The translations under genes and the position numbers were made by a program. Below are positions 49,321-63,775 of a DNA stretch of 64,000 nt, in pieces. Below the pieces are notes generated by a model. That model saw only the letters and a list, made by a program, of their open reading frames with translations, was not told where the DNA came from and searched no databases. Source of the stretch: a virus. The stretch lies in IMG/VR virus record IMGVR_UViG_3300033149_006574, positions 12,652-76,651 of that record; one strand, written 5' to 3'. Every line of letters starts with the position of its first letter. The first letter of the stretch is position 1.

Positions 49321-49357
49321 ATTATCCCCCTTAAAATCGCAAAAGAAAATTGATATA

Positions 49358-50509
49358 TTATCCAATAATGCGAACCTCACTGCCAATTAATAGCTCTAGT
49401 TGCCCTATGTCAATATTGTAGCCAATTTTAATAATCCCGCTTTCGTAAGGCCTCGTATCCGTTGTCCACTTTCGTAAATTAGTTATTGATGCAGAACTGG
49501 CAATATAATTTTTATCTTCATAATCAACCTTGAAAAGGTGATTGTGAACGAAATAATCCTCTCTCGCTGAGGCAGAGGAGTTACCACGAATGAACACATC
49601 CCCTAAATAGAACTCATCTCCATCATTGGGAATTGTCGCATATACATATCCGCTATAATAGCACCAGCACCATCTTTGATTTATTGCATCATCTGTGTTA
49701 ATCTTTAATAATGTCGGAACCGAAGTACCAGGTAAAATACTATACGGTTTTGCAACAACAACCGGGGAAGATAATGTTGAAATTCTAATCCAATATTTTT
49801 CTTCTCCGTTCACTGTTGTTTTTATCCAATCATCTATTGAATCCCAATATATTCGTCCACCAGAAACAAAATTATCTGTATCATCGGTTACTGTGCTTAC
49901 AGGGGTTATGCCTGAAGCAATTTCTGTCCATATTGGTGTGGCCCCTTCCTGATAATACTCAAATTTTAATCCATAACCTGACCCAAGAGTATGAAAATCA
50001 AATGTGATAGAAGTAAATTTATTATCAGAGCCGATATAAAGATAATCTTCGGTAGTCCTTAAAATCTCTTGCTCAGTTTCACCCTCTTGAGACATATCGC
50101 TTGTAATATCGTTATAACAGGGCGTAGATAACGAACCTTGGTAATCAAATATTTTATCAAACGCTGTAATCGTTTCATTATCAGCTTCACCTCTATATGT
50201 AAGCAATTTATCATCAAAATACATCTGATTTTTTGTATTATGAGCAAAATCAGATAAGGGATATTTCCAGATAGAATAACCACCTTCCGCCCTTAGATGC
50301 GTCCAATTAGCAAATGTTGAAGAAGTATGTCCAAGCTCAACATTACGCTTGAATTTTCTGTTTAAGGATAAATCTGAATAAAGCTGGTCTATTTCATTTA
50401 AATCAAATGCTTTTTGCTCAATTCGGCCTTCTAATTCCTGGTCGTTATCAGAAAGCCTGTCTTGAGCATCTTTTAATGACTGATTAGGTTGTGTTCGCTT
50501 TATTGTCAT
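49358..50509 (-). CDS. Tail/baseplate structural protein
   Basis: DYLYIG..KF..I.F...G; DDT..F..G.I.W...DW....VNG..KYWIRI; tail context. Confidence 0.7.
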   Translation of the reverse strand: MTIKRTQPNQSLKDAQDRLSDNDQELEGRIEQKAFDLNEIDQLYSDLSLNRKFKRNVELGHTSSTFANWTHLRAEGGYSIWKYPLSDFAHNTKNQMYFDDKLLTYRGEADNETITAFDKIFDYQGSLSTPCYNDITSDMSQEGETEQEILRTTEDYLYIGSDNKFTSITFDFHTLGSGYGLKFEYYQEGATPIWTEIASGITPVSTVTDDTDNFVSGGRIYWDSIDDWIKTTVNGEEKYWIRISTLSSPVVVAKPYSILPGTSVPTLLKINTDDAINQRWCWCYYSGYVYATIPNDGDEFYLGDVFIRGNSSASAREDYFVHNHLFKVDYEDKNYIASSASITNLRKWTTDTRPYESGIIKIGYNIDIGQLELLIGSEVRIIG

Positions 50510-50518
50510 GATATTCCT

Positions 50519-52831
50519 TTATACAAATTGTATCTCTCGCCATCCAGGCGTTGCCTGCAAGGCATCATATATATAGAATTTTTTATTAACTGTATCTCGC
50601 CAAAACATACCATCTAATGGTGTAGCCACCTGAGTGTCCGAACATTCCATTCGCATTTTTAGCCCTTGATAACCATTAAAATCAATATCTCCCCCCAATA
50701 TTGGATGATAAAGAGAAATCTTTAGGTTATCCTCTTCTGAAATATGTATTGTTGCACCATCCAATTCTTCAGAATTTATGTAAGGATTTTTGTTAAAATT
50801 ACAATTCTTAATATAAAAATATCCATTTCCTGATCTAACAGCTAAAAATATTTTATCATCTGATTCGAAAGTGCTTGATATTATATTCCAAGTGATAGAA
50901 TGATCATAAAATAATTCGGCAATTAAACAATAATTAGTACCTTTTACAATTGAATCTTGTATAATATTTGTATTATACCATGCTTTAATTTCACCACGGA
51001 TATTAGAAGATCTAATAATAAAGCTTCGAGCCTCTAATGAACCATCCGTCCCTATCCAATCATTCGATAAAAAATTAAAAATATTTAATATTACATTATT
51101 AATATTAGCAAAAAAGATTTTAGGTTTAAGGCTAGTAGGATTTATACCTACCACGGGATCTTCAAAACCAAAGTCCAAATCCGAAAAATAACAAGTAGTT
51201 ATATTAGAAGCATTAAATTGAAGAAAAATAGGACGATAAGTACTCATTGCTATTTGTATATCGGGGGAATAAATTTTTAAAGTAAAACTTGATAATTCAC
51301 AATTTTCATTACAAACAAAAATACCATCCCGATTTTCATTTGGAAAATCAATTCTTCGATAAGTAGTAGCAAAATCTGGAATAAAATTAATAATAGTATT
51401 TTGTAGACCAGCGCCAATAACCTTAACATTAGCTCTAATTTCTATAGGGTCATAGGGATTAAAAGGGCCATCTTCCCCGCAAATCCAATCATATTCCCCT
51501 GGTTGAATTCTTAAAATATGTTCTCCAGAAGTTTCATTATTAATATAATTAATAGCTTCTCTTAAATCATTAAAATCGCCCTCCTCTTTAGCTAAGATGG
51601 TAACATTTTTTGTTTGCTTAATCTTTCTTTGTCCTATAAATCTATCTTGAATTCCATTTTCATCTATAAAAACGGATTCTCCTATTTGTATATACCCTCC
51701 ATCGCCAACCTTTAAAGTACCCCCATCACCCAATTCAATAATCCCACCATTTGGTACATAAATATTTTGTCCTAATATTCCACCTAATGCATGAACAAAA
51801 CCTTTTAAAGTAACAGAAAATGCTTTAATGTTCCCCAATTTATCTATTTTAAAACCAGAAACACCTTCTTCATAATTAGCAGATTGGATTCCATCCTCAT
51901 TAATTAAAATGCCCCCAAATTCACCGCTTTCTGCATTAATCTCTCCTCTAACTTTAGCATTCTCCAGCTCTACTTCTCCTGTATCCTTTATCCTGAATCC
52001 TTTTACTCCCTCTTCAAAATTTATGCTTTCAATACTATGCCCGGTTATTTTTATATTTCCAATAGTAGCACCATCTTTACGATAGGAAGCAAGTAATTGT
52101 CCATTAGCATCATAAAAGAATGTTCCGTCTCTCGTAAATTTCGCCAGAGTGCTATTATCAGCACTTTTAATTCTTATCTCCTTAGAATCCATTTCAAGTG
52201 TTCCCTGAGTGTTTTTAATCTGTAATCCTTCAGAAAGTGTAATATCTCCTACAAGAGATGAAGCAAGAACCTGACGAAGGGTATTGCGAAAATAACTAAT
52301 TGTCTCGTCGTCTATGCGTCTATCTATGTCATAAAGCGCATCGCTGGATAACACTATGTATCCATTATTAGATGATTCGTCTTTATCCTGAGTAATCTTT
52401 TGAGTAGTAGTTGAAGGAAGGACAATCTTGCCAAGTTCTAGATAATCAGTTCTTTTAGTAGCACTCTGAACAATATCAAGATTAGAATTAAGATAAAGCC
52501 TTACAACTTTGGGTAAATCCGCCATTTCTATCTGAACACTTTTAGTATCGTCAGTTTCAATACATTTACCATTAAGAATCGCTTTTCCAGGCATTACATT
52601 GACTATCGCACTGGGAGGATCCGTTGCTTTTATCTCAAAACCTTCGGCTATACGATTGCCAACGAGCAATGCCATAGCTTGCGAAAGATTGTTAATACTA
52701 TCAGATATAGATTTAGATGTAACCTCAGCACCAAAATTGCCGGAAGGAACTGTAGCAATGCCAGCCCTTGGTTGCAATGCCTTTTCTATTTCTTGCTTAA
52801 TTAAGATGTAAAGATTTTTGCTTGTTTTCAC
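50519..52831 (-). CDS. Tail fibre/spike with beta-helix (pectin-lyase-like) domain
   Basis: Repeated S.N(F/Y)EEGV.GF.I; GDF.DL.EAI...IQPGEY...IGAG...T beta-helix entry. Confidence 0.7.
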   Translation of the reverse strand: MKTSKNLYILIKQEIEKALQPRAGIATVPSGNFGAEVTSKSISDSINNLSQAMALLVGNRIAEGFEIKATDPPSAIVNVMPGKAILNGKCIETDDTKSVQIEMADLPKVVRLYLNSNLDIVQSATKRTDYLELGKIVLPSTTTQKITQDKDESSNNGYIVLSSDALYDIDRRIDDETISYFRNTLRQVLASSLVGDITLSEGLQIKNTQGTLEMDSKEIRIKSADNSTLAKFTRDGTFFYDANGQLLASYRKDGATIGNIKITGHSIESINFEEGVKGFRIKDTGEVELENAKVRGEINAESGEFGGILINEDGIQSANYEEGVSGFKIDKLGNIKAFSVTLKGFVHALGGILGQNIYVPNGGIIELGDGGTLKVGDGGYIQIGESVFIDENGIQDRFIGQRKIKQTKNVTILAKEEGDFNDLREAINYINNETSGEHILRIQPGEYDWICGEDGPFNPYDPIEIRANVKVIGAGLQNTIINFIPDFATTYRRIDFPNENRDGIFVCNENCELSSFTLKIYSPDIQIAMSTYRPIFLQFNASNITTCYFSDLDFGFEDPVVGINPTSLKPKIFFANINNVILNIFNFLSNDWIGTDGSLEARSFIIRSSNIRGEIKAWYNTNIIQDSIVKGTNYCLIAELFYDHSITWNIISSTFESDDKIFLAVRSGNGYFYIKNCNFNKNPYINSEELDGATIHISEEDNLKISLYHPILGGDIDFNGYQGLKMRMECSDTQVATPLDGMFWRDTVNKKFYIYDALQATPGWREIQFV

Positions 52832-53337
52832 CCTAAGTTAGCCCCCCATTTATATTTATAACAATTTACGGGGCAATGCCCGATAGATGTATAACTAATA
52901 CCTGCAGAGTAAGAATTAGTGCTTCGTAAACATCCATCACCCAATAGTTCTCCATCTATGAATTGCTTTGCTTCATCAGATAAATTACAATGACTACCCC
53001 GTCTTATATGATTGGTTTCACTTCTAAGACGAATTGGAATGTGAAATCGTCTTATCCATTTTAATACAATAGGATGAAGTGTATTATATAATTTCGCTAT
53101 CTGACACATGCTTAATTTTTGATTTAGGTATAGGTCTTCTAGTTGCCTTTTTGTTATTTTAAATTGCATTCTTTTTTTGCCACTATTCCTAGTTCTAATT
53201 GGAATATAATGTTTTTCTAGCCAATAATATATTGTATTTGCACTTACATTATATGGTTTTGCAATTTCTTGGCAACTCAATTTTCGATTTAAATACCTAT
53301 CTTCTAACCAATTTTTATCCTTATATAATTGTTTCAT
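52828..53337 (-). pseudogene. Truncated LAGLIDADG homing endonuclease with tandem HTH repeats
   Basis: Two L.D.YLN.KLS..(E/Q)IAK repeats, FIDGELLGDGCL, then ends about 30 aa later. Confidence 0.65.
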
Positions 53338-53379
53338 TAAATTGATACCCCCTCTATTATTATTAAGGGATAAAGGCGA

Positions 53380-56300
53380 CTATCCATAATATGCAAGAAT
53401 AAGATTCGCCACATTAGAATTGTCAATTGATATTGATTCTATGAAATATAATCTATCTATTCCATTAATATCGTCTTTTATCCAAACAGTGTCTCCAATT
53501 TGAAGGTCGGGTCTTGCAAAACAAGTTGCACGGACCCGAGTAGTCCCTTTATAATATTCTTTCAATAAATCTTTTGCCCTTTTATTAATTCTTGTTTGGG
53601 TATTCAAATACTCATTTATATTATTATCTTTATAGAGAACATCTCCTACTTTTGATAAAATTCCCCTGGAATCATATAAATGTGTATCATCTTCATCTTC
53701 CTCATTCTCGCATAATTTAGCCTCGCCTACCAGTATTGTATTTTCATAGGCAGAAAATTCGGTTATTGAAACTGGCCAGATATCAACTCCGCCTATAGTC
53801 TTCTTTTCTGCTTTATTGAGAACTATGCGTAAATATCTTGCTTTAAATTCTTCGCCTAAATCTTCAAAATTTTTAGTTTCTCCTGCCCCAATTGAAAAAT
53901 TATTGGCTTCTTTACAAATAGGATACCAATCTACATTATTCAGACTATATTCTATTGTATAAGTATTTGAAAAGTCATAATTCCTATCTCCAATTTTATA
54001 AAATCCTGTTGAAAAATCAATAATATCTATGTCTTTCTCTTCTTGTAAATCAAATGAAATTAATACTAATGAACCCGGATCCGTCTTATACCCGATTTGT
54101 AATTGCGTCAGCGGATTTTTGTCATGCAATTTATATCTATCTTCTTCTTGCGAATGTTCTGTGCCAGCATCTATCATATAAGCATTCAGGCTAGCCGAAA
54201 CAGATGTAATCTTTGATCCTACTATCATATCGGCACTATGAAAATATCGAAGGTTTGTCTGTAAATTAATTTGGTTAAATATTATTGTTCTTGGTGCCAA
54301 AAATCCAAAATGATATCTCCATTTATAATGCGAATAGCTATCGCCACTTCCTGAGTAAAGAAATTTTTCACCATAAACTTTTGTATTCATTGCTAAGTGC
54401 TGGTATGTTCCATTAAGGTAAAATGTGATAGTAATTATCGCAGGGTTAGGGGGATAGTTTTGATAAGGAATATTATTCGCAATTATATTACCATAAATAA
54501 GCCACCAGCCATCATCAGATAATAACATTGGCCAGGCAGGATGAGACCAAATGTCCATCAAAGAACTATTTGCGGGAGCATTGGGAGTTGTATATGTACA
54601 ACCTAAATATTTTACCCTACCATCTGGATTTTTAATTTCTGATTGCTGATAATATTTAGACCCACATAAAGACATTATATGATAAATCCATTCGTTTTTA
54701 CGAATTAAATTATCCTTTACTGTAATTTTTATTGGATTATTCGAATCAATTTTAATATTTCCGCTTGCTGTAATTTTAAAATCAGGATATACCCTTTCAA
54801 TTTCTTGTGTAGCCCAAAGGGGATAATATGCATAATAACCCTGTCCTACATCATCAAATTCTAATTTCAAATCACTAACATCAATTTGAGCATATATATC
54901 TTGTCCATCATAAAAAACAATTGGATAATCCTTATCAATATTGAGGGGGAATGTATATCCAATAAAAGCATCGTCTTTTTTAATTCTCCCCCATCCTGTT
55001 GCATTTTTTGTTTCATCAAACATTAATGAAGTCCCATTTACAGTAATTATTGGCTTTTGAGGATAATAAAGAAGAGTCTTATTATAAAGATAGGATCTTA
55101 ATTTGACAGACGGTATACCAGGCCAGGAATCATTATCGGTTCCATAAGGATATAAAGTAATCGTGGGGTTATCAACCAAAAAATAGCTTCCATCATAAGT
55201 AACGCCCGGATCCTGCATAACATTATGAGGATTATTACTCTTACCAAATACCTTAACGTGAGTATATATATCCTCATCCAAATTATACGATAGGCTTCCA
55301 ATAAGATTTAATTTATAATCAGCACCTCGATTAGAATCTAGTGGATTATAAATTTTCTGACTTAAATATCGCCCCCAGAGTTTATTATCACCTAAAGTCA
55401 TAAGCACATAATTGGGTGGAAGATATTGTTTCACGCTATTTATGGCCTCAAAACGATTCGCTATTTTATCAGCAGATAACCTTATAAATGGTATGGTAAT
55501 GCCCGAATATTGTAAGGTATTAAATAAGTAATTTTTAGTACAAATTACATTAGAATCGGAAGCAATCTCATTCTCTAATATTATATACCCCGCCTCTTCA
55601 TTTATTTCTGTAATACTTCCGCCACCGGCGGGAATACTAAAATCTCCCTCTGTTAAAGTATCTAAAATATTAGAGAAGCTAAGCCACCATTTTTTTGTAT
55701 TAGTAATATCTCTTATTAAGCTATCTGTACTTTTGCCAATTGCGTCGTTTAATGTTGTTTCAAAATCGCTATCACTATAAATAGTATTACCATATCCATC
55801 TGGTTCAAGGAGTATTTGCTTAATAACATCTTCTGCCCTCAGGCCAGTCGAATAATAGGAAAAAACCGCCCAAATCTCAAAATCATCTGTGCAAATAGGG
55901 GCTGGTAATATCAATTGTCCTGTTTCATAATTTATTTCAAAAGAATCCTGAATAGTCTTCTCCCCTGAGGTTTTTTGCACAATGCGAATTATTGGGGCAG
56001 GCCATGGGGCGATATTGTTTACTGGCACAAAATATGGAGTGGCACAAGTAAGCCAGTAACCAAAATCAAAAAATTGTGCAAAGTTAGATGGCAATGTATC
56101 CGGATGAGGGCTAGACTCTACTAATGGTACGCCTAAATTATAGCTTTCCCCTGGCATATCATGAACATCTACCTTCGTTCCCTCAATAAGACCTAAATCA
56201 ACATCTGTTTCTTCAGCCTTAACCAGAAAATCTAAGCAAGTAACTTCTATTATATCTTCAGCGCTTTTTGAAGATGGATTAACCTGCCTTACAACCCAAT

Positions 56301-56583
56301 TTGTTTCAAATGTTTCCTTAGACCCATCGTCAAGGATAATAGAACGCTGAACTTTAACATTATCTCCTTGTTTTACCTCTTTTGCCCCACCAACAGAGTA
56401 AAGATGTTCTCTATTTGCAATTTGCAGAACCAGTGATGCCACGCCAAAAGATTTATCAATAGAATAAGAGTAAGAAGAAGCATCGGGGATAACTGTCCCA
56501 TTTATTAAAACATTGGTTTCAATTACAATATTTTTCGAATTTATCTTATTCTCGGCTGATGTTGATAGATGTTTAAGACTCAT
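53380..56583 (-). CDS. Large tail-tip/baseplate hub protein with discoidin (F5/8)-like insert
   Basis: YTIEYS..NVDW...KARYLRI; C-terminal RPDLQIGDTV...YFIESI. Confidence 0.75.
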   Translation of the reverse strand: MSLKHLSTSAENKINSKNIVIETNVLINGTVIPDASSYSYSIDKSFGVASLVLQIANREHLYSVGGAKEVKQGDNVKVQRSIILDDGSKETFETNWVVRQVNPSSKSAEDIIEVTCLDFLVKAEETDVDLGLIEGTKVDVHDMPGESYNLGVPLVESSPHPDTLPSNFAQFFDFGYWLTCATPYFVPVNNIAPWPAPIIRIVQKTSGEKTIQDSFEINYETGQLILPAPICTDDFEIWAVFSYYSTGLRAEDVIKQILLEPDGYGNTIYSDSDFETTLNDAIGKSTDSLIRDITNTKKWWLSFSNILDTLTEGDFSIPAGGGSITEINEEAGYIILENEIASDSNVICTKNYLFNTLQYSGITIPFIRLSADKIANRFEAINSVKQYLPPNYVLMTLGDNKLWGRYLSQKIYNPLDSNRGADYKLNLIGSLSYNLDEDIYTHVKVFGKSNNPHNVMQDPGVTYDGSYFLVDNPTITLYPYGTDNDSWPGIPSVKLRSYLYNKTLLYYPQKPIITVNGTSLMFDETKNATGWGRIKKDDAFIGYTFPLNIDKDYPIVFYDGQDIYAQIDVSDLKLEFDDVGQGYYAYYPLWATQEIERVYPDFKITASGNIKIDSNNPIKITVKDNLIRKNEWIYHIMSLCGSKYYQQSEIKNPDGRVKYLGCTYTTPNAPANSSLMDIWSHPAWPMLLSDDGWWLIYGNIIANNIPYQNYPPNPAIITITFYLNGTYQHLAMNTKVYGEKFLYSGSGDSYSHYKWRYHFGFLAPRTIIFNQINLQTNLRYFHSADMIVGSKITSVSASLNAYMIDAGTEHSQEEDRYKLHDKNPLTQLQIGYKTDPGSLVLISFDLQEEKDIDIIDFSTGFYKIGDRNYDFSNTYTIEYSLNNVDWYPICKEANNFSIGAGETKNFEDLGEEFKARYLRIVLNKAEKKTIGGVDIWPVSITEFSAYENTILVGEAKLCENEEDEDDTHLYDSRGILSKVGDVLYKDNNINEYLNTQTRINKRAKDLLKEYYKGTTRVRATCFARPDLQIGDTVWIKDDINGIDRLYFIESISIDNSNVANLILAYYG

Positions 56584-57424
56584 AGGCGTATACCTTCTTT
56601 AAATCTTCCTCAAGATTTTTGTTCCAAATTTTCGGATCTTCCCCAAATTCCTTTAATTTATCCTCAAAGATTTTTTTATTATTATAATAATATTCATTCC
56701 ATTTGTTCCCTGATAAAATAATCCTGGTCGAATGGTAATTATGAAAAACAAAGCTTTTCAAAGTAACAAGAGATTTATATCCATTTTTTTCAATCATAAA
56801 TAAATCTAGCGTATCTTCGAAATTAGAGCCTTCAAAATCTTCATTATAAGGTAAATAAGCTTCTTTTCTTTTTAAAAATGGATGTTGTAAGCCTCTTGAT
56901 ATTTTATCCCGATATGTTTTCTGTGCAATGTCAGTTATTTCAGATTGTATGCTCTCAAAACCTTTATTCAAAATTTCCTCATCTCTTAAAGCATATTTTG
57001 GGCTACCCCAAAAACCCTTAGGAGTAATCAAGCCACTACAAATCATTCCTATTTTTTTCTCCTTATCCCTTTCCATTATTTCAACAAGAGGACTGAGCCA
57101 CACTTTCGGAAAAACCATATCATTATGAATTTCAATTATATAATCACAATCATAATGTTTTAAAAGATGGGAATTGGCAATATTTCTTGCTTTTGCTATC
57201 CCCTTATTCTCTGGAAGAGAAATAATATCAACTTCATTCTTAATATTATTTTTAATCCATCTTATAGATTCATCGGTAGATGCATTATCAACAATAACCA
57301 ATTTATAATTATATGATACTAAATCAGAGTTCAGTAGGCTCATAAGAGCAAGTCGAGTAATTCCAAACATAAATGGATATTCTTTTAAATTACAAAAAAT
57401 AAGCGAAATTCCTATTTTCAACAA
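56573..57424 (-). CDS. GT2 glycosyltransferase
   Basis: IVDNASTDES, ENKGIAKARN, HND, FED. Confidence 0.9.
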   Translation of the reverse strand: MLKIGISLIFCNLKEYPFMFGITRLALMSLLNSDLVSYNYKLVIVDNASTDESIRWIKNNIKNEVDIISLPENKGIAKARNIANSHLLKHYDCDYIIEIHNDMVFPKVWLSPLVEIMERDKEKKIGMICSGLITPKGFWGSPKYALRDEEILNKGFESIQSEITDIAQKTYRDKISRGLQHPFLKRKEAYLPYNEDFEGSNFEDTLDLFMIEKNGYKSLVTLKSFVFHNYHSTRIILSGNKWNEYYYNNKKIFEDKLKEFGEDPKIWNKNLEEDLKKVYAYES

Positions 57425-57429
57425 GCCTC

Positions 57430-58452
57430 CTATTTGTTTGATAAATATTTTCTACAATTAGCGGGAATAAAATCATTTATGTTTTTATCTGGCAAATATA
57501 ATGAAAAATAATCAGATAAAATCGTTCCTGCTCGATGTAGATAGGTATGTTTTTGATATACTTCTAATTGCCCCCATCTGGCAATATTTTGCCTTGCATC
57601 ATCATTGCTAAGATAATAATCAATTAATTGTATAGTTTCTTCCGGCGATTGGCTCCATTCCATGTGTCTTCCTTTGACAAATAACTTTTCAAATGCCTTA
57701 GTGTAATAACCTAAAGAAAATGTCCTGCATGCCATAATTTCGTAGGTCCTCATAGAAGTCTGGGTTTCTGAGCTCCATATTTGATTAACATTTAACGCAA
57801 TTTTTGCAGATGAATATGCTGATGGTAATTCTTCATAAGCAAGAGGTCCCTTAATTATTTCAGGGTATTTAAGCAAATTATATGGTCTATTAGCATCGTC
57901 CCACCAAATACCCCACACTTGAATTTTATATCCTTTCTCCAAAATCGGATTTAATAATATATTATATGTCTTTTCATATCTTCGGTCATAATTTGAACCC
58001 ACTAGTATTATATCCGTTTGATATTCTGGCTTTATATGCCATTTTCTATGAAATGAGGGCAAACAGCCAAAAAGTAAAACATCGCATGGTTTCCCTAATT
58101 GTTGATAATGTGGAATAAGTTCTTTACAAGTAGTAAACACATAGTCAACATAAGGAACAAACCATCTATCAGATTGTGATGTGTTTATAGGATCCTCTAT
58201 TGCCCAGTAGAATATCTTTAATTTATGTCCAAAATCTTTCTTTATTGCCGGAACAAGTGAAGAGTTAAAGCCAGGGAAGCCCTCAAAAAATACAATATTA
58301 GGCTCCCAATTGTTTATAACTTTATAAAGGACCTCTGCTTGATTATTATATTGCCATAATCCCATTACCATAACGTCTTGTTTTAATTTAACAAAACCTT
58401 CTGCCAAACCATATTTTATAAGTGGACAGTTATTAAGGAAAAGAATCTTAAT
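57430..58452 (-). CDS. CgeB/DUF3880-type GT-B glycosyltransferase; probable ATT start
   Basis: WAIEDP, D.VFTT, YSSAKIALN, RTYEIMAC, HTYLHRA; AGGAGGTGA 5' of ATT giving MKILFLNN. Confidence 0.85.
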   Translation of the reverse strand: MKILFLNNCPLIKYGLAEGFVKLKQDVMVMGLWQYNNQAEVLYKVINNWEPNIVFFEGFPGFNSSLVPAIKKDFGHKLKIFYWAIEDPINTSQSDRWFVPYVDYVFTTCKELIPHYQQLGKPCDVLLFGCLPSFHRKWHIKPEYQTDIILVGSNYDRRYEKTYNILLNPILEKGYKIQVWGIWWDDANRPYNLLKYPEIIKGPLAYEELPSAYSSAKIALNVNQIWSSETQTSMRTYEIMACRTFSLGYYTKAFEKLFVKGRHMEWSQSPEETIQLIDYYLSNDDARQNIARWGQLEVYQKHTYLHRAGTILSDYFSLYLPDKNINDFIPANCRKYLSNK

Positions 58453-58468
58453 GATAAATCACCTCCTT

Positions 58469-59182
58469 TCACTTAAGACACACCGGACACTTACTATGCC
58501 GATAATACTCCTCTATATCTTCATATTGAGTATTAATTGGATATTCATTTATAAAGTTATGGTTGGGTGCATGACCATAGTCTATCCCTACCTTATTCAT
58601 ATGCAATGCTTCATTTGCTAATGCTGGAGCCCATACTCCCATACTAATCAGTGCGATATCAAAATCATTATTTCTCATTTCATTACGAATTATATCGTAT
58701 TCATACATATTAGAAATATCATATTTAATAGAAGGAACAAAATAATTAACACCTAACGGTTTTAAAAATTTTTCTGCCCATTCTTTCATAGGAAAGCCTA
58801 AAAGCAAAAGTTTATGTTTCATTAAAACTTCTTTTACAAATTTTAATCTGGTACATAAAAATAAATTAAGCCAAGCATAACAATATCTATCAGGAGGATA
58901 TTTTAATCCTTGAATCTCAAAGGATCTTTTGGTCCAATCATCTATAACAAAGCAACCAATTATACTTGCTTCTCGAATAGCATTCGCAAGCATTAATCTA
59001 GCCATTTGCATGCTTGAACCTTCAATTTTATTTTCCCCACGATAGTCCCAAATATTACGCTTTAATATCTCACCACTTAAAACAATATTTTCTCCGTCAC
59101 CAATTCTAACCAATGAATATCCCTTCTTCTTGTCTAATGCCTCAATAATCTCATCAATAATAATATTAATATTTATTTCCAT
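58469..59182 (-). CDS. GT-D fold (DUF1792-like) glycosyltransferase
   Basis: SLVRIGDGE, FDIALISMG, GIDYGH. Confidence 0.75.
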   Translation of the reverse strand: MEININIIIDEIIEALDKKKGYSLVRIGDGENIVLSGEILKRNIWDYRGENKIEGSSMQMARLMLANAIREASIIGCFVIDDWTKRSFEIQGLKYPPDRYCYAWLNLFLCTRLKFVKEVLMKHKLLLLGFPMKEWAEKFLKPLGVNYFVPSIKYDISNMYEYDIIRNEMRNNDFDIALISMGVWAPALANEALHMNKVGIDYGHAPNHNFINEYPINTQYEDIEEYYRHSKCPVCLK

Positions 59183-60138
59183 TTATTAAATAGTTTAATA
59201 TAAGCCTCAATCATTTTATTCAATGAAAAATTAGATTTAATTCTTTCCCTTGCATTAAACTTTAATTGATTCAATTGTTCTTTGGGTAAAGAAACGACTT
59301 CTTTTAACTTGGATAAAAATGAGTTCATATCCATATTTTCAGAAAAAAATCCATTTTCTCCAGCCACTATTTTAGAACCAATCGTAGGAGTACTGACAGG
59401 AATATTCCCGTAAGACATGGCCTCCGCTTGAGATAATCCAAATGATTCAGATAAAGAATTAGATAAAATAATATCTAAATTTCCCAGAATGTCCCCAAAT
59501 TTATCTTTAAAGCCATAATAACGAACCTTATTTTTTAAACCATATTCCAAAATTAAATCAAGAACATTGTCTTTTTCCTCCCCATCGCCAATTATTGAAA
59601 AATCTATGCCAGAAACTTCCTTTAACAAATTCTTAAAAATGATAATTAATTGTGGAACTCTTTTTATGCTATCAATCCTACCCAAATATCCCAGATGGAG
59701 TATATCTCCAACTGGCTTTATTGTTACATCTGGAATTTCTATACCAGGATAGATAATGCTTCTTTTATTCTCTGGAACAATAAAATAATTTAACAATTGG
59801 TCATTGTTATAAATATAATAATCACAATCTCTAAACTGCCCTATACAAAACTTGCTATGCAATGTTTCAACAACAGGGATATTTTTTTCTTTTGCTATTG
59901 CATAGCCAAATCCAGACGCATGAATATTTACTAAATCTATATCTTTAAAATTATTATTTTCCGCCCCATATCTAACCTCTACCCCGGCTTCAGAAAATAG
60001 AGATTCAAAATGCCCTCCGACTAAAGCAATAACAACGGATTGAATATCAGAATACGCAGATAAACCTTTAGCAAGATTAAAAACAAATTTTTCAACACCA
60101 CCAAAGCATAAAGAATTACAACATATTCCTACTTTCAT
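59173..60138 (-). CDS. GT4 glycosyltransferase
   Basis: GGVEKFV, YLGRIDSIKR, SESFGLSQAEAMSYG. Confidence 0.92.
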   Translation of the reverse strand: MKVGICCNSLCFGGVEKFVFNLAKGLSAYSDIQSVVIALVGGHFESLFSEAGVEVRYGAENNNFKDIDLVNIHASGFGYAIAKEKNIPVVETLHSKFCIGQFRDCDYYIYNNDQLLNYFIVPENKRSIIYPGIEIPDVTIKPVGDILHLGYLGRIDSIKRVPQLIIIFKNLLKEVSGIDFSIIGDGEEKDNVLDLILEYGLKNKVRYYGFKDKFGDILGNLDIILSNSLSESFGLSQAEAMSYGNIPVSTPTIGSKIVAGENGFFSENMDMNSFLSKLKEVVSLPKEQLNQLKFNARERIKSNFSLNKMIEAYIKLFNKWK

Positions 60139-61181
60139 GTTAGAGAATTTCTATCTTTATTCCAAAAATGGATTGGATTTATTATTTTATCTCCATTCTT
60201 TATAGGCTGTATATTATTTTCTCCAAAATTTTCAAGATAGGTAGGATAAAGACCATCACAAATTTCTCTATAAGCACAATTTTTACATTTTTCTATAAAA
60301 ATATTATTACCTGCACATAAAGTTCTGGTAAGATAATTTGCTAACCTTTCTTCTAAGTTTTCTCCATAAAAAGATTTAACCTTCTCGGCATAATCGTTTC
60401 TTTTGCTTAATGGAATATGAGCCTGCCATGCCATATTCCATTCATAGGGATCATACTGCCATTGCAGGGCATTTGAAACATATTTTTCATAACCTTTCAT
60501 AAAACATAAGGGGATATATCTTACTGTTATTCTATATCTATCAGCAACCTTATCAATTATACGTTTCATAACAATGGCTATATCTTTATAATCTATCTGC
60601 AATTCTTTAGCCTCTTTTCTCAAATTCCAATCAGAGGTTGGATATGGATTAAAACAAATAAAATTTGCCATTCTTGGTTTTAAATCTAAAAGATACCCTG
60701 TGGCATATTCGTACAAGTCATTTATATTAAGATTGGTTACTACGGAATTAGTCCTAAAAGAGAAATTATGTTTTTTCAAGACTTCAATACTCTGACTTGT
60801 TAATTTCCAGCCATTAGGGACACCCAAACAACGATTTTGCGTTTCACCTATACCATGCAAACTTAATAAAATATCTTTTACATCACTTGCTATTGACTTC
60901 TCAACCCCACCAGGGCTTATACCGGAAGTAATCATACAAGAATCAATGCCAATTTGATTTGAATATTCAATAAGCTCTTCTAATTGTGGATATAAGGCCG
61001 GCTCCCCTCCGCTCATGTCATATATCTTTAAATCATAATTTTCTTTCATATCTTTAACCTGAGATTTAACCCATTCAATATCATAATCCTGCTGTGGCTC
61101 AAAGCGAAAATAGCAACCGGGGCATTTGCAAGGACATTTCTTGGTTGGGTAAATAACACCCCGTTTTGTAATATTAGCCAT
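60135..61181 (-). CDS. Radical SAM enzyme with C-terminal SPASM/twitch-like cysteines
   Basis: CPCKCPGC (CxxxCxxC), SGGEP, RYIPLC, CKNC...CDG. Confidence 0.9.
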   Translation of the reverse strand: MANITKRGVIYPTKKCPCKCPGCYFRFEPQQDYDIEWVKSQVKDMKENYDLKIYDMSGGEPALYPQLEELIEYSNQIGIDSCMITSGISPGGVEKSIASDVKDILLSLHGIGETQNRCLGVPNGWKLTSQSIEVLKKHNFSFRTNSVVTNLNINDLYEYATGYLLDLKPRMANFICFNPYPTSDWNLRKEAKELQIDYKDIAIVMKRIIDKVADRYRITVRYIPLCFMKGYEKYVSNALQWQYDPYEWNMAWQAHIPLSKRNDYAEKVKSFYGENLEERLANYLTRTLCAGNNIFIEKCKNCAYREICDGLYPTYLENFGENNIQPIKNGDKIINPIHFWNKDRNSLT

Positions 61182-61785
61182 CTACTCTCCTAAATGCAAC
61201 AACATTCTTATTTTGTTGTTCGATTTTCTGAAATTTAACATTTTTTTCAAAAAATGAATCAATAATTTGTCTAACATTTGGATGCCTTAAATTATTATAA
61301 TCATGACAAAAACAGATGCCACCAACAACAATTTTCGGTATCCAATTATTTAAATCAAATAATAAATCTTCGCTCTTATGAGAACCATCTATGTGCAAAA
61401 AAGAAATAGGTATCTCAAATCGAGAAAAATCCCTCGAAGTGCCAATGCAAATCCTTATTTCATTATCTAACTTATTTTTATAGATATTATTTAACAAAAT
61501 TTTACCCATTTGCTCCCCAATTGCTAAATCAATATGCATCTCTTCAAATTCAGGATTACCAAACAATGGTTCAACTATATATAATTTCTTTTTCTTTTCC
61601 GATTCTTTAATAATATTCCCAAGTAATATTGCAGTCCTGCCATAAAATGAACCTATTTCAACAAAGTCTCCTTCTTTATTAAGTGAATCCTTAGCAAGAT
61701 GATACATAGCTTCAGCTTCTTGTCTTTCATAAAAACCAAAAATGCTATTAACTATATTTTCCCAGATTTTCTCAAAAGTTTGCAT
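61174..61785 (-). CDS. Class I SAM methyltransferase (Methyltransf_24 type)
   Basis: VEIGSFYGRT, FLHIDGSH, GG...HDY. Confidence 0.88.
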   Translation of the reverse strand: MQTFEKIWENIVNSIFGFYERQEAEAMYHLAKDSLNKEGDFVEIGSFYGRTAILLGNIIKESEKKKKLYIVEPLFGNPEFEEMHIDLAIGEQMGKILLNNIYKNKLDNEIRICIGTSRDFSRFEIPISFLHIDGSHKSEDLLFDLNNWIPKIVVGGICFCHDYNNLRHPNVRQIIDSFFEKNVKFQKIEQQNKNVVAFRRVDG

Positions 61786-62446
61786 ATATGTCCCTCAACT
61801 TATCCTGCCATTTATTCCTGAGTAAGGCATTATCTTTTTGTCCCAGGGAAGCTGATTCTGGAAGCCATGAAGTAACTGATTCATGAAAAACAAAGGAAGA
61901 AGAATATATTAATTTATATCCTGCTTGCCAACATCTGATTGAGTAATCTAAGTCAAAAGCAAATTTAGTAAATTGTTCATCCAATAAGCCAATCCTATCT
62001 ATTAATTCTCTTTTAACATACATACAAGCTGAGCAACCCCAATGCGCAAATCTTGGCTCTTTTATCGCATCTCTACTCATTCTAATACCAAAATTTTCTA
62101 TATCAAAAAAACCGCCAGAATTTTCTATAGCTTCTTCTCTTATTGTTGGAGCAACAACAATTCCTATTTTAGAATCAGAATAGGCCAAATTATACAAAAT
62201 ACTCAGCCAGCCCTGTACAAGTCTTATATCATCATCCAATAATAATATATCGCCATCGGTTATTTTAATACCACGATTATGCTCTCTGGGATGGTTGAAA
62301 TCAGGAGAGTTGTTATTGTCTAATACAATAATCTCATATGGGGAATGGACTGTTAATTGTTTAATATCCCTAAAAAGCAAATTCGCTCTATCGGCGGAAA
62401 CATCTCTTGTTGAACAAATAATTGATATTTTCATAGATTTTACCAA
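61772..62446 (-). CDS. GT2 glycosyltransferase
   Basis: YEIIVLDN, NRGI, LLDDD, IGLLDEQF, DYSIR...AGYK; likely start ATG 62434. Confidence 0.88.
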   Translation of the reverse strand: MVKSMKISIICSTRDVSADRANLLFRDIKQLTVHSPYEIIVLDNNNSPDFNHPREHNRGIKITDGDILLLDDDIRLVQGWLSILYNLAYSDSKIGIVVAPTIREEAIENSGGFFDIENFGIRMSRDAIKEPRFAHWGCSACMYVKRELIDRIGLLDEQFTKFAFDLDYSIRCWQAGYKLIYSSSFVFHESVTSWLPESASLGQKDNALLRNKWQDKLRDIYANF

Positions 62447-62970
62447 CGCGCTCGATAGCCCCTATTGTCAAGGTGAAGCGCATTGGGATGAGATAATTGC
62501 TTGCCAAGACCTCCGTCTTGCCACAGTGGCTCAGCAAATTCTATAATAATACCCTGTGGGACTAATTCACCATTTTTCAGCCTAACTACGATATCTGTCG
62601 CACATTTTCTATGCTGAGTGGTATATCCCAATTCTGGGCCAGATACCTCTAACGCACGCTCAGGGCAATTATAACCACGAGTGATTATAATTTGAACTTC
62701 TTGCTTATAATATTTAGATAATATCCATCGAAGTTTTTCCAATCGATTTATTTGATCCACCCAACGCTCCCAATATTTTAAATTTATTGTATGACCACAA
62801 TGAGGACACGGCCCTAAATTTTTTTTACAGGCTGTTTCCAATATACTAAAATGCTCGCTCCACCGTAATTGTGAAATAGTTATTAATTTATTTTTCTTCT
62901 TCATTATTCCCATTTTCGATATCCCTCTCAGCTTCCTGAATATGTTCATTAATGTAGTCCAAAAAGCCAT
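62440..62970 (-). CDS. Peptidase M15A-family endolysin-like protein
   Basis: HFS..E.AC, LEKLR, ITRGY.C, QH...ATDI, LHLDNR...ARW. Confidence 0.8.
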   Translation of the reverse strand: MAFWTTLMNIFRKLRGISKMGIMKKKNKLITISQLRWSEHFSILETACKKNLGPCPHCGHTINLKYWERWVDQINRLEKLRWILSKYYKQEVQIIITRGYNCPERALEVSGPELGYTTQHRKCATDIVVRLKNGELVPQGIIIEFAEPLWQDGGLGKQLSHPNALHLDNRGYRARW

Positions 62971-63039
62971 CTATATCTTTCCTCACTTGAATAACCATTA
63001 TTTTCATTTCCTGTAAAACATGCCTCAAAGCTTCTTTTT

Positions 63040-63276
63040 TCATTTGTAGGATAGAGAATAATAATCTTTTTTACATTTTTTGCAGAAAATAATCCACTCA
63101 CCGAACTTGGAATTTCTGGCAACGAGAGGCTCATCGCAAATAGGGCAAGTAGAAAAATTACCGGCAAGGTGAGAAATTTCCTCTGCAATATCCGCCCTCT
63201 TTGCCCGCCTGGGCTTAAATTTGCCCGTTTTAGGCACTTTATTTTTAATTTCCGTATTTCTATCCGTTTTCCTCAT
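63040..63276 (-). CDS. Zn-ribbon protein
   Basis: CPICDEPLVARNSKFG...FCKKC; SD GGGGG. Confidence 0.65.
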   Translation of the reverse strand: MRKTDRNTEIKNKVPKTGKFKPRRAKRADIAEEISHLAGNFSTCPICDEPLVARNSKFGEWIIFCKKCKKDYYSLSYK

Positions 63277-63349
63277 TTTATCCCCCTAAAAAGCGAATTA
63301 ATATACATTTCCATAATTCCATTTATATTGATAGCATTCTACAGGACAT

Positions 63350-63775
63350 TCACCAATTACTAGTTCCGTCAACAGGAAATCTATCAATAATTATCTGATA
63401 TCCGTAATATTGTTCTTTTCCAGTCTGTAGAAATTTAAGTGTAGCAGAAATTATATAGCCCTGGAAGGTTTTAATTCCCGTTGGGGTTACAAAATCGGTG
63501 TGAGTTGTTATCTTAAGTCCTATATGATTTTTATAATAATTTTGAATCTTATTAATAAGTTCTTCATTAATACTTAAAGGGGAGATATTTAGAGTAACAT
63601 TATTCTTTTTAATAGAAGGACGAATAATTCTTGCAAATGATCCGTCAACTAACTCAATTTTATTAACTACGGGTGCTTCTTCTAAAACTGGTTCTTCAAC
63701 CAATTCTCCCAAATTACCATCTGAAACCCAAGTAGGTGTCGCTAAGCTTGTATCCCATTTTTCAACATACCACAT
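63350..63775 (-). CDS. Distal-tail-like structural protein
   Basis: Immediately downstream of the tape-measure C-terminus. Confidence 0.55.
   Translation of the reverse strand: MWYVEKWDTSLATPTWVSDGNLGELVEEPVLEEAPVVNKIELVDGSFARIIRPSIKKNNVTLNISPLSINEELINKIQNYYKNHIGLKITTHTDFVTPTGIKTFQGYIISATLKFLQTGKEQYYGYQIIIDRFPVDGTSNW

What the first reader, a model, noticed from the sequence alone, without database searches (positions are those of the whole stretch)
49934..63742. Recurring Ala-Thr-Pro in tail-protein turns: candidate O-glycosylation sequon
Seen: A-T-P occurs five times in the four tail proteins flanking the GT cluster: YYQEG-ATP-IW (49934-49942), YDALQ-ATP-GW (50546-50554), QV-ATP-L (50618-50626), WLTC-ATP-YF (56035-56043) and WDTSL-ATP-TW (63734-63742). 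Near variants are LSTP, GITP, FVTP and YTTP. Three sit in the same aromatic-x4/5-ATP-x-W context in unrelated proteins with different codons, so this is protein-level convergence rather than a DNA repeat. My rough estimate from typical composition is under one expected in about 2400 aa. Inference: loops evolved to present Thr to the phage-encoded initiating GT.
Basis: partly seen in the sequence, partly recalled or inferred. Interest (0 to 1): 0.78.

Follow-up and report, generated by a model that had tools for sequence, protein, structure and literature searches.

The report
Thr-Pro loop tags on phage virion proteins
An uncultured 76-kb phage has inserted the tripeptide Ala-Thr-Pro, or a close x-Thr-Pro variant, into surface loops of about ten unrelated particle proteins, and it carries a seven-gene sugar-transferase cluster inside its tail operon, so these loops are probably sugar-attachment tags, although no chemistry has been done.

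Summary
All five Ala-Thr-Pro (ATP) sites are at the stated coordinates. Across the whole 76.6-kb genome ATP occurs 11 times, always in the 20 late (packaging and virion) proteins. About 1.06 are expected there (P = 1.7e-8), and ATP is the top outlier of all 8000 tripeptides. It occurs 0 times in 15,300 aa of early and glycosyltransferase (GT) proteins. The signal is at protein level: all 11 GCNACNCC words are in frame, codons vary, and there is no Ala-Ser-Pro.

Against distant relatives, the sites lie in or next to lineage-specific insertions of 2-12 residues. Other insertions carry VTP, ITP and STP. Among relatives Thr-Pro stays while the preceding residue and the site change.

The GT cluster sits in the tail operon only in the close clade. 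Its enzymes look soluble. One is a CgeB-family transferase; the Bacillus prototype is implicated in glycosylating a Thr in an exposed loop of a spore-crust protein.

The link between motif and GTs is inferred. One intermediate relative has VTP at the same loops with no cluster at that locus, and the baseline-ATP relatives also carry other GTs.

This scan has noted analogous candidate sequons in other phages.

The parts
63734..63742 (-). ATP site 1: residues 12-14 of the 141-aa protein that follows the tape-measure gene (WDTSL-ATP-TW)
   Evidence: A two-residue insertion (SL) abuts the motif when aligned to 6 homologues (G--SSTW). The intermediate relative has NDVTPTW.
63479..63493 (-). FVTPT: a five-residue lineage-specific insertion in the 141-aa protein (residues 95-99)
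   Evidence: absent from all 6 homologues, including the intermediate clade.
56035..56043 (-). ATP site 2: residues 181-183 of the 1067-aa tail protein (F5/8 type C domain)
   Evidence: It lies in a 12-residue insertion (GYWLTCATPYFVP) found only in the close clade. P0003 has ATP, P0002/L016 has TTP and P0001 has ATS. About 20 distant homologues lack the insertion.
50618..50626 (-). ATP site 3: residues 736-738 of the 770-aa tail-tip fibre protein
   Evidence: The C-terminal 425 aa have no alignable homologue in the relatives.
50546..50554 (-). ATP site 4: residues 760-762 of the 770-aa protein, 10 residues from its C-terminus (ATPGW)
49934..49942 (-). ATP site 5: residues 190-192 of the 383-aa tail protein
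   Evidence: Three-residue insertion relative to 7-11 homologues (YWNGSA---WT). In the AlphaFold2 model it is a hairpin turn between strands 181-187 and 193-196. P0176 has VTP, P0177 has no insert, and distant P0182 has GTP at this loop.
49901..49909 (-). ITP: residues 201-203 of the 383-aa protein, a lineage-specific insertion in a low-confidence loop
   Evidence: P0176 has ITP; P0177 has ATP at this same loop.
50120..50131 (-). LSTP: residues 127-130 of the 383-aa protein, in a loop between strands 119-123 and 132-134
   Evidence: Conserved in both close relatives. Distant P0182 has ATP here; most homologues have a gap.
47392..47400 (-).
2700..2708 (-). ATP near the C-terminus (residues 233-235 of 239) of the protein in the small-terminase position
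   Evidence: L003 has AATPIP; the intermediate relative has SVTPIE.
534..542 (-). Portal ATP (FFENNATPRLHI): an ancestral family motif, to be discounted
   Evidence: Invariant in portals of relatives at 36-70% identity.
57430..58407 (-). CgeB-family glycosyltransferase (325 aa, PF13524); candidate initiating protein O-GT
   Evidence: Pfam E = 2.5e-27. 40-46% identity over more than 90% of its length to Bacillota proteins that sources name 'spore maturation protein CgeB'. 79-96% identity in the three close relatives.
59173..60138 (-). GT4/GT1 glycosyltransferase (321 aa); alternative initiating enzyme
   Evidence: PF00534 E = 9e-22. The nearest named or solved relatives are BshA, TarM, SdgA/B and GtfA-type retaining GlcNAc transferases.
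58469..59182 (-). GT-D fold glycosyltransferase (237 aa)
   Evidence: PF22882 E = 1.5e-29; NF040628 at 83 bits, above its cut-off of 75. 41% identity in L016.
56573..57424 (-). GT2 glycosyltransferase (283 aa); its 3' end overlaps the start of the 1067-aa tail gene by 11 nt
   Evidence: PF00535 E = 3.7e-13. ORF coordinates. 74% identity in L016.
61772..62446 (-). GT2-like glycosyltransferase (224 aa); first gene of the cluster
   Evidence: PF13632 E = 6.6e-6, slightly below the curated cut-off. Weak EpsD and rhamnosyltransferase matches.
61174..61785 (-). SAM methyltransferase (203 aa, Methyltransf_24, weak TylF-like match)
60135..61181 (-). Radical SAM enzyme (348 aa) with SPASM-type weak matches
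   Evidence: Homologues at 27-28% identity occur only in Campylobacter CP220-like phages.

Best explanation
x-Thr-Pro loops, with Ala strongly preferred at position -1 in this phage, are acceptor tags for O-glycosylation of the assembling virion by the phage's own cytoplasmic glycosyltransferases.

Proposed course of events:
1. Inferred: the seven-gene cluster is transcribed with the tail genes late in infection.
2. Inferred: a soluble initiating enzyme puts the first sugar on the Thr of exposed x-T-P turns in capsid, adaptor, tail-tube-region, tail-tip and fibre proteins. The best candidate is the CgeB-family GT; the GT4 is the alternative.
3. Inferred: the two GT2s, the GT-D enzyme and the other GT-B enzyme extend the chain.
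4. Guessed: the methyltransferase and the radical SAM enzyme tailor a sugar.

Shown here:
- The motif excess and its restriction to late proteins.
- Its protein-level nature.
- Its location in lineage-specific loop insertions.
- Turnover among relatives with an invariant Thr-Pro core.
- Confinement of this GT cluster to the same clade.
- Absence of membrane or lipid-carrier machinery in the cluster.

Not shown: any modification of any Thr.

The host is probably a spore-forming member of Bacillota, from which the CgeB-like gene seems to come. This is also inferred.
For: 1.

2. Enzyme-like specificity: Thr but not Ser (ASP 0 against 1.07); Ala before 11 of 30 Thr-Pro pairs (P = 3e-7).

3. Protein-level signal: 11 of 11 DNA words are in frame 0, codons vary, and there is no paralogy.

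4. Insertions:
- Query-specific insertions make up 2.3% of aligned residues. They hold the Thr of 3 of 6 alignable ATP sites (P = 2.5e-4) and of 5 of 15 Thr-Pro sites (P = 1.8e-5).
- Two of the remaining ATP sites abut an insertion (ESDL|ATP, SL|ATP). The sixth, in the 1067-aa protein, lies in a 12-residue insert absent from about 20 distant homologues.
- 6 of 11 multi-residue insertions outside the tape measure carry or abut a Thr-Pro.

5. Turnover with a fixed Thr-Pro core:
- 383-aa protein loops read LSTP/ATP/ITP here, LSTP/VTP/ITP in P0176, LSTP/none/ATP in P0177, and ATP/GTP in distant P0182.
- The capsid loop reads GATP, GTTP, QATP, AATP, GVTP or GGTP in a subset of homologues and is absent in about 70 of 90.

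6. Loop location:
- The capsid model (pLDDT 88, TM-score 0.68 to HK97) puts ATP in a flexible loop at residues 226-241.
- The 383-aa model puts all three Thr-Pro motifs between strands.

7. Baseline in relatives: late proteins of 12 distant relatives have ATP 8 against 10.25 expected over 72,726 aa, and no homologue of any cluster gene within 10 kb of the tail gene.

8. Cluster distribution: present beside the tail gene in every close relative examined. L016 shows it directly. P0188 shares a contig length with P0003, and P0189 shares one with P0001 and P0176.

9. Cluster properties: all enzymes lack hydrophobic segments, there is no flippase, polymerase or polyprenyl-phosphate priming enzyme, and the last GT gene overlaps the tail gene start.

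10. Precedents:
- B. subtilis CgeB is implicated in glycosylating Thr112 in an exposed flexible loop of the crust protein CgeA (PMC13577073).
- GT-D was defined on an enzyme that extends the O-glycan of the Fap1 protein (PMC5063993; abstract listed, role from my own knowledge).
- Mycobacteriophage virions are glycosylated by phage GTs (Freeman et al. 2023, seen only as cited in PMC12582341 and PMC12894461).
Against: - There is no chemical evidence.
- The intermediate relative G001 has V-T-P at the same capsid, 142-aa and terS-like sites (VTP 6 against 0.81 expected), yet its 142-aa gene is followed directly by the tail protein with no GT cluster. The record is a 23%-complete fragment, so GTs could lie elsewhere.
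- The capsid Thr-Pro loop therefore predates, or is independent of, this cluster's present position.
- The distant 'control' phages are not GT-less: G002, G004 and G005 carry other GTs next to structural genes. GT presence alone does not predict the motif.
- ATP is not strictly kept in close relatives (ATS, TTP, VTP, or loss of the insert).
- One ATP is in a terS-position protein that is not expected in the virion. The portal ATP is ancestral.
- Three IMG/VR phages with distant (30%) CgeB-like genes show no ATP excess and only a mild Thr-Pro excess, with early and late ORFs pooled.
- Which face of the capsid the loop occupies was not determined.
Confidence: 0.48

Rival explanations
1. The x-Thr-Pro loops are a selected motif for something other than glycosylation. 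Candidates are another modification (phosphorylation of Thr-Pro, or a radical-SAM-dependent change), or a docking site for a host or phage factor such as a chaperone, prolyl isomerase or decoration protein. On this reading the GT cluster acts on another substrate.
For: - The enrichment, the insertions and the turnover with a fixed Thr-Pro show selection for the motif but do not identify its partner.
- G001 keeps V-T-P loops without the cluster at that locus.
- The phage encodes a dual-specificity-phosphatase-like protein and a SPASM-like radical SAM enzyme.
Against: - No kinase was recognised.
- The phosphatase is in the early region.
- Radical SAM peptide maturases normally need a leader or recognition element, and none is evident.
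- No known phage factor recognises A-T-P.
- The co-transcribed GT cluster is the only candidate protein-modifying machinery lying within the late operon.
Confidence: 0.17
2. The motif is a lineage idiosyncrasy of loop architecture, for example Pro-stiffened turns, with no modification. The GT cluster is a moron that alters host cell-wall polymers (teichoic acid or another surface glycan) or the spore surface, for example to block superinfection.
For: - The GT4's nearest solved relatives include the wall-teichoic-acid GlcNAc transferase TarM, and BshA.
- The phage has an integrase, so it may be temperate.
- The capsid Thr-Pro loop is older than the clade carrying this cluster.
- Relatives carry unrelated GT sets without any ATP excess.
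Against: - A purely structural cause does not explain why one tripeptide is ten times too frequent across unrelated folds.
- It does not explain why Ser never replaces Thr, or why the motif arrives by insertion that lengthens loops.
- It does not explain why different relatives place x-T-P in the same loops independently.
- The cluster has no membrane component, and its last gene overlaps the tail gene start, which indicates late co-expression rather than lysogenic expression.
Confidence: 0.27
3. Chance: the excess is a post hoc pick among many possible short motifs.
For:
- One control locus also has an extreme tripeptide (HTH, 7 against 0.29, in L008).
Against: - ATP ranks first of 8000 tripeptides and survives Bonferroni correction (about 1.4e-4).
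- It is replicated in proteins not used for discovery (P = 1.6e-4, or 9e-4 without the portal).
- It is independently tied to insertions (P = 2.5e-4).
- It is spread over 10 unrelated proteins.
Confidence: 0.03

Closest known systems
Bacillus subtilis CgeB / CgeA spore-crust glycosylation (PMC13577073; Nakaya et al. 2023 as cited there)
   Same: - One cluster gene (325 aa) is a full-length homologue, at 40-46% identity, of Bacillota proteins that sources name CgeB. It has the same length and the same PF13524 domain.
- The prototype is implicated in adding the first sugar to a Thr (Thr112) in an exposed, flexible loop of a self-assembling surface protein.
- Further GTs are proposed to extend the chain.
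- From my own knowledge, the crust is assembled in the mother-cell cytoplasm without a lipid carrier.
   Different: - Here the gene sits in a phage tail operon with six other enzymes.
- The presumed acceptors are many unrelated virion proteins sharing a short tag, not one dedicated protein.
- Orthology to B. subtilis CgeB itself was not tested.
- The residues flanking CgeA Thr112 could not be retrieved, so whether it is Thr-Pro is unknown.
Mycobacteriophage virion glycosylation (Che8, Corndog, Myrna; Freeman et al. 2023, Cell Host Microbe; paper not held, known through citations in PMC12582341 and PMC12894461)
   Same: Phage-encoded glycosyltransferases, reportedly with a methyltransferase, decorate capsid and tail proteins made in the cytoplasm.
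   Different: - The host phylum is different and the GTs are unrelated.
- There the glycans are, from my recollection, on C-terminal extensions of capsid and tail-tube subunits, not on a short sequon scattered in loops of many proteins.
- In this phage the cluster is embedded between tail genes.
Chlorovirus PBCV-1 major capsid protein Vp54 glycosylation (reviews PMC5408694 and PMC9614988, listed)
   Same: A virus encodes its own cytoplasmic glycosylation machinery and uses acceptor sites that differ from the cellular consensus.
   Different: The virus is eukaryotic, the glycans are N-linked to Asn, and the enzymes are different.
Serine-rich-repeat adhesin glycosylation (GtfA/B, dGT1 with DUF1792/GT-D; PMC5063993)
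   Same: A soluble GT4 initiates on Ser/Thr of a protein, then GT-D and GT2-type enzymes extend the glycan stepwise in the cytoplasm. The phage cluster has GT4, GT-D and GT2 members.
   Different: The acceptors there are long Ser-rich repeats rather than isolated x-T-P turns. There is no accessory Sec system here. Similarity to GtfA and SdgA/B is weak and generic (E = 1e-6 to 1e-11, far below the curated cut-offs).
Clostridioides difficile SgtA / BclA3 exosporium glycoprotein (PMC7157674)
   Same: A spore-surface protein of a Bacillota member receives O-GlcNAc on Thr at a short repeated motif, from a dedicated soluble GT encoded next to it.
   Different: The motif is Gly-Pro-Thr collagen triplets, with Pro before the Thr rather than after it. 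SgtA is a GT-A plus TPR enzyme, and no TPR GT is present here.

Membership tests
CgeB family (spore maturation glycosyltransferase) | C-terminal Glyco_trans_1_2 domain (PF13524) | tested here: met
   E = 2.5e-27, 96 bits against a cut-off of 25.
CgeB family (spore maturation glycosyltransferase) | N-terminal DUF3880 (PF12996) plus full-length similarity to proteins named CgeB | tested here: inconclusive
   PF12996 was not reported for the window protein at E <= 1e-3. It is precomputed for P0189 (81% identical) and for nearly all of the 40-46% identical homologues, several of which JGI, NCBI or UniRef name CgeB. Direct comparison with B. subtilis CgeB was not possible.
CgeB family (spore maturation glycosyltransferase) | Transfers a sugar to a Thr in an exposed loop of a protein acceptor | not testable with these tools
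   Needs an enzyme assay. Even for the prototype the evidence is a slight gel shift plus modelling (PMC13577073).
Protein glycosylation sequon (short acceptor motif) | Motif over-represented in the target protein class and not elsewhere | tested here: met
   11 against 1.06 in late proteins; 0 against 1.1 in the rest.
Protein glycosylation sequon (short acceptor motif) | Motif located in surface-accessible loops | tested here: inconclusive
   The sites are in indel-prone loops, in a hairpin turn of the 383-aa model, and in a flexible loop of the capsid model. Exposure in the assembled particle was not computed because no coordinates were available.
Protein glycosylation sequon (short acceptor motif) | Motif co-occurs phylogenetically with the modifying enzyme | tested here: inconclusive
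   In favour: the close clade has both, and 12 distant relatives have neither this cluster nor the excess. Against: G001 has V-T-P loops and no cluster at that locus, though it is a fragment.
Protein glycosylation sequon (short acceptor motif) | The hydroxyl residue carries a glycan | not testable with these tools
   Requires mass spectrometry.
GT-D fold glycosyltransferases (DUF1792 type) | Match to the GT-D domain models above their curated thresholds | tested here: met
   PF22882 at 103 bits (cut-off 27); NF040628 at 83 bits (cut-off 75). No PDB sequence match at E <= 0.01.
Lipid-carrier (Wzx/Wzy or oligosaccharyltransferase-dependent) glycosylation pathway | Polyprenyl-phosphate priming transferase, flippase and oligosaccharyltransferase, all multi-spanning membrane proteins | tested here: not met
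   None of the seven enzymes has a 19-residue window with Kyte-Doolittle mean >= 1.6 (maximum 1.38), and no such families were found.
Phage DNA glycosylation (5hmC/TET-type hypermodification) | A hydroxymethylating or TET/JBP enzyme that supplies the acceptor base | tested here: not met
   No such domain among the 20 largest early proteins. Only N6/N4, MT-A70 and C5 DNA methylases were found. Smaller ORFs were not scanned.

The most novel reading that the evidence does not exclude
A phage captured a spore-surface glycosylation cassette from its Bacillota host (a CgeB-type initiating enzyme plus extenders), placed it inside its tail operon, and then retro-fitted its own capsid, neck, tail and fibre proteins with a minimal three-residue acceptor tag (Ala-Thr-Pro) by repeated micro-insertions into loops. 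If so, this would be the first defined O-glycosylation sequon for a phage-encoded system. By extension it would give a candidate recognition rule, hydroxyl residue followed by Pro in a flexible turn, for the poorly understood CgeB family. It would also be a portable tag for glyco-engineering.
Probability: 0.3. Interest if true: 0.85.

Novelty: new variant of a known kind. Interest (0 to 1): 0.7.

Why it matters
Glycosylation of phage particles has been demonstrated only recently and, to my knowledge, only in mycobacteriophages. No short acceptor motif is known for any phage-encoded system.

Here the sequence alone gives a sharply defined and falsifiable rule: Thr followed by Pro, Ala preferred before it, in inserted loops. 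It also gives a short list of candidate enzymes and a set of natural 'with and without' variants among relatives.

If confirmed, it would show how a virus adapts its whole structural proteome to a newly acquired modifying enzyme. It would give the CgeB family a substrate rule. It would provide a three-residue tag for site-specific sugar attachment in the bacterial cytoplasm.

A sugar coat could also affect phage stability, host range and recognition by host defences or by animal immune systems.

Tried and rejected
- DNA-level repeat or methylation-site explanation: rejected. All 11 words are in frame 0 and codons vary.
- Paralogous domains explaining the shared context: rejected.
- 'Aromatic-x4/5-ATP-x-W' as an extended sequon: the flanks are ancestral strand residues.
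- Cultured-phage relatives: none for the terminase, GT-D, the CgeB-like gene or the 8-kb tail region. The radical SAM enzyme matches only Campylobacter CP220-like phages, and the context there was uninformative.
- Prophage relatives in 185,579 species genomes, searched with the tail protein: none.
- Host identification through the phage's TnpB: hits at 50-67% identity are spread over many phyla, so this was uninformative.
- Searches for more members of the V-T-P clade and of the radical SAM gene in IMG/VR found nothing new.
- Promoter and terminator scans around the cluster were at chance level.
- Freeman et al. 2023 and Nakaya et al. 2023 are not held. The residues around CgeA Thr112 could not be obtained.
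- Using distant relatives as 'GT-less' controls: abandoned, because they carry other GTs.

Full report
**Setting**

The window is bases 12652-76651 of a 76,651-bp IMG/VR virus record with a 114-bp direct terminal repeat. No cultured phage resembles it.

The late genes are all on the minus strand and wrap around the record ends. In order they are:
- a 239-aa protein in the small-terminase position, a 477-aa protein in the large-terminase position (no Pfam or PHROG match; assigned by position and synteny) and the portal;
- a 779-aa protein with a DNA-ligase domain, the prohead protease, the 300-aa major capsid protein (HK97 fold) and a 203-aa head-tail adaptor;
- five small proteins, one of them a 233-aa protein that carries an ATP site;
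- a 235-aa protein and a 1337-aa tape measure;
- a 141-aa protein and a 176-aa Peptidase_M15-like protein;
- seven enzymes: GT2-like, methyltransferase, radical SAM, GT4, GT-D, CgeB-like GT and GT2;
- a 1067-aa tail protein, an HNH/HTH insert and a 770-aa tail-tip fibre protein;
- 383-, 493- and 613-aa proteins, then the lysis genes.

**The observation**

- With each protein's own composition as the null, 0.28 are expected in those four proteins (P = 1.1e-5).
- In the whole genome ATP occurs 11 times, all in the 20 late proteins (8703 aa; 1.06 expected; P = 1.7e-8). It is the most extreme of all 8000 tripeptides.
- It does not occur in 13,204 aa of non-structural proteins or in the GT cluster.
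- In twelve control loci from relatives the best tripeptide usually reaches only 1e-4 to 1e-5.

The signal is in the protein.
- All eleven sense-strand GCNACNCC words in late genes are in frame 0, and third positions vary.
- The proteins are not paralogues.
- It is specific. Ala-Ser-Pro never occurs (1.07 expected). The overall Thr-Pro excess (30 against 20) is fully accounted for by ATP. Ala precedes 11 of 30 Thr-Pro pairs (P = 3e-7).

**What the sites are**

I collected relatives by protein searches. This gave 12 distant phages from IMG/VR (tail protein about 30-43% identical), a clade of intermediate relatedness (L017-L019), one close contig (L016) and close proteins from ENA and JGI.

In the alignments the ATP sites coincide with small insertions peculiar to this lineage:

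| Protein | This phage | Distant relatives |
|---|---|---|
| Capsid | PTDVANGATPSGS | PTNLGK----SGS |
| 233-aa | EAATPVNAK | GGV----PS |
| 383-aa | YYQEGATPIW | YWNGSA---W |
| Adaptor | ESDL inserted just before ATP | no insert |
| 141-aa | SL inserted just before ATP | no insert |
| 1067-aa tail protein | 12-residue insert containing ATP | absent from about 20 distant homologues |

Query-specific insertions are 2.3% of aligned residues. They contain the Thr of 3 of 6 alignable ATP sites (P = 2.5e-4) and of 5 of 15 Thr-Pro sites (P = 1.8e-5).

Other insertions carry FVTPT (141-aa protein), ITP and LSTP (383-aa protein).

Models agree with a loop location.
- In the 383-aa model (pLDDT 62) ATP is a hairpin turn between strands 181-187 and 193-196, and the two other Thr-Pro motifs lie between strands.
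- In the capsid model (pLDDT 88; TM-score 0.68 to HK97) ATP is in a low-confidence loop, residues 226-241.
- I could not determine which face of the shell that loop occupies.

**Turnover**

| Site | This phage | Relatives |
|---|---|---|
| 383-aa, three loops | LSTP / ATP / ITP | P0176 (77% identical): LSTP / VTP / ITP. P0177 (74%): LSTP / no insert / ATP. P0182 (41%): ATP at the first loop and a GTP insert at the second |
| Tail protein, residue 181 | ATP | ATP, TTP or ATS in the three close relatives |
| Capsid loop | GATP | GTTP, QATP, AATP, GGTP or GVTP in a subset of the nearest homologues; absent in about 70 of 90 |

The conserved unit is therefore Thr-Pro in an inserted turn. The preceding residue is small or aliphatic, and Ala is favoured here. 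Gain, loss and relocation around a fixed dipeptide are what a short functional tag would show, and a folding requirement would not predict them.

One site must be discounted. The portal's FFENNATPRLHI is invariant across the whole family.

The 'aromatic ... x-W' flanks are ancestral strand residues, also present in relatives without the insert.

**The glycosyltransferase cluster**

- None of the 12 distant relatives has a homologue of any cluster gene within 10 kb of the tail gene. There the tape measure is followed by a protein of about 150 aa and then the tail protein.
- The close relative L016 has GT-D, the CgeB-like gene and GT2 directly upstream of its tail gene (41%, 79% and 74% identity).
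- CgeB-like proteins at 96% and 81% identity lie on contigs of the same lengths (6262 and 12,220) as the other two close tail proteins.
- The cluster is therefore a clade-specific insertion into the tail operon.
- Its last gene overlaps the tail gene start by 11 nt.
- All seven enzymes lack hydrophobic segments, and there is no flippase, polymerase or priming phosphoglycosyl transferase. This points to stepwise cytoplasmic transfer onto a soluble acceptor.

The most informative member is the 325-aa GT.
- Outside the phage clade, its homologues are 40-46% identical Bacillota proteins that several sources name spore maturation protein CgeB.
- B. subtilis CgeB is implicated in glycosylating Thr112 of the crust protein CgeA. 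That residue lies in an exposed, flexible loop, and other GTs are proposed to extend the chain (PMC13577073).
- From my own knowledge the crust is assembled in the mother-cell cytoplasm, which makes it a close functional analogue of decorating a particle assembled in the cytoplasm.

Other members:
- GT-D was defined on an enzyme that extends the O-glycan of a serine-rich adhesin (PMC5063993; listed, role from my own knowledge).
- The GT4 resembles retaining GlcNAc transferases (BshA, TarM, SdgA/B, GtfA), but only generically.

**What weakens the link**

1. G001, the longest contig of the intermediate clade, has V-T-P at the same capsid, 142-aa and terS-like sites (VTP 6 against 0.81 expected). 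Its 142-aa gene is followed directly by the tail protein. The record is a 23%-complete fragment, so GTs may lie elsewhere, but the Thr-Pro loops are older than the cluster's present position.
2. The distant relatives with baseline ATP (8 against 10.25 expected in 72,726 aa) are not GT-less. G002 has a GT block just beyond its tail genes, and G004 and G005 have GTs beside the prohead protease. These are at most 21-26% identical to the ones here. This suggests GT genes embedded in structural modules are a habit of the whole group, perhaps with different acceptor rules. It also removes the clean 'GT-less' control.
3. Three IMG/VR phages with 30% identical CgeB-like genes show no ATP excess.
4. 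No chemistry exists.

**Verdict**

Its structural reading, tags inserted into loops, is well supported. The functional reading, O-glycosylation by the co-transcribed cluster, is the best available explanation at roughly even odds.

The rivals are:
- another role for the tag;
- a cluster aimed at wall polymers, with the motif unrelated to it;
- chance, which is effectively excluded.

A DNA-glycosylation role for the cluster is not supported. No hydroxymethylase or TET-type enzyme was found among the 20 largest early proteins.

This scan has already recorded analogous candidate sequons (Ser-Gly, Gly-Ala-Thr-Gly, Ser-Pro loops and others) beside GT genes in other phages. Those are unverified notes. 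They show that the idea is recurrent, not that it is proven. What is distinctive here is the very short, sharply specific tripeptide, the direct insertion evidence, and the CgeB connection.

Noticed in passing
late proteins genome-wide, e.g. window 47455-47463 (613-aa protein, residues 75-77); L002 capsid residue 227: Tyr-Val-Pro is the second most enriched tripeptide: 8 against 0.81 expected in late proteins and 0 against 0.81 in early proteins. Two copies are in the portal and two in the 779-aa protein. In the capsid it aligns to F-I-P in relatives, so it is a substitution and not an insertion. Unexplained.
   Followed up: partly
window 62440-62970 (-): The 176-aa ORF between the 141-aa protein and the GT cluster looks like a Peptidase_M15_3 peptidoglycan endopeptidase by language-model features (score 0.95) and by structure (TM-score about 0.7). 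It is probably a tail-associated lysin and not part of the glycan genes.
   Followed up: partly
window 52828-53337 (-): A 169-aa HNH/HTH protein sits between the 1067-aa tail gene and the 770-aa fibre gene. The close relative L016 lacks it: there the fibre gene follows the tail gene directly. It is probably a mobile homing-endonuclease insertion.
   Followed up: partly
L002:10271-12610 (-), just left of the window: The 779-aa head-module protein has an ATP-dependent DNA ligase domain (PF01068, E = 3e-25). The close relative L003 has no such gene between portal and protease, whereas L020 has a 1055-aa homologue (39% identity).
   Followed up: partly
window 45847-47688 and 47905-49386 (-): The 613-aa (LamG/DUF2341) and 493-aa late proteins each have a strongly hydrophobic N-terminal segment (Kyte-Doolittle 19-residue mean about 2.1-2.2). 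This is unusual for tail fibres.
   Followed up: no
window 42635-43336 (+): An eighth glycosyltransferase-like gene (233 aa, Anp1/GT62-like, E = 4e-13) lies at the end of the plus-strand block, away from the tail-operon cluster.
   Followed up: no
G002:31354-42822; G004:97563-99783; G005:80109-82332 (loci L045-L047): Distant relatives carry their own, unrelated GT sets next to structural genes: after the tail genes in G002, and beside the prohead protease in G004 and G005, including a 757-aa double-GT1 protein. GT genes embedded in structural modules seem to be a trait of the whole phage group.
   Followed up: partly
L017/L022 (G001, IMGVR_UViG_3300035698_025451): In this intermediate relative Val-Thr-Pro (6 against 0.81 expected), and [V/I]-T-P taken together, are over-represented in late proteins. 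They occupy the same capsid, 142-aa and terS-like sites that carry ATP in the window's phage.
   Followed up: partly
window 26201-27313 (+): A TnpB/IS605 OrfB gene inside the phage has 50-67% identical relatives in MAGs of many phyla (Thermodesulfovibrionales, Atribacteria, CPR, Actinomycetota, Chloroflexota, Chlamydiota), so it gives no host signal.
   Followed up: yes
window 1255-2688 (-): The 477-aa protein in the large-terminase position matches no Pfam or PHROG family at E <= 1e-3 and no cultured phage by tblastn, although it is conserved (33-69% identity) in the relatives.
   Followed up: no
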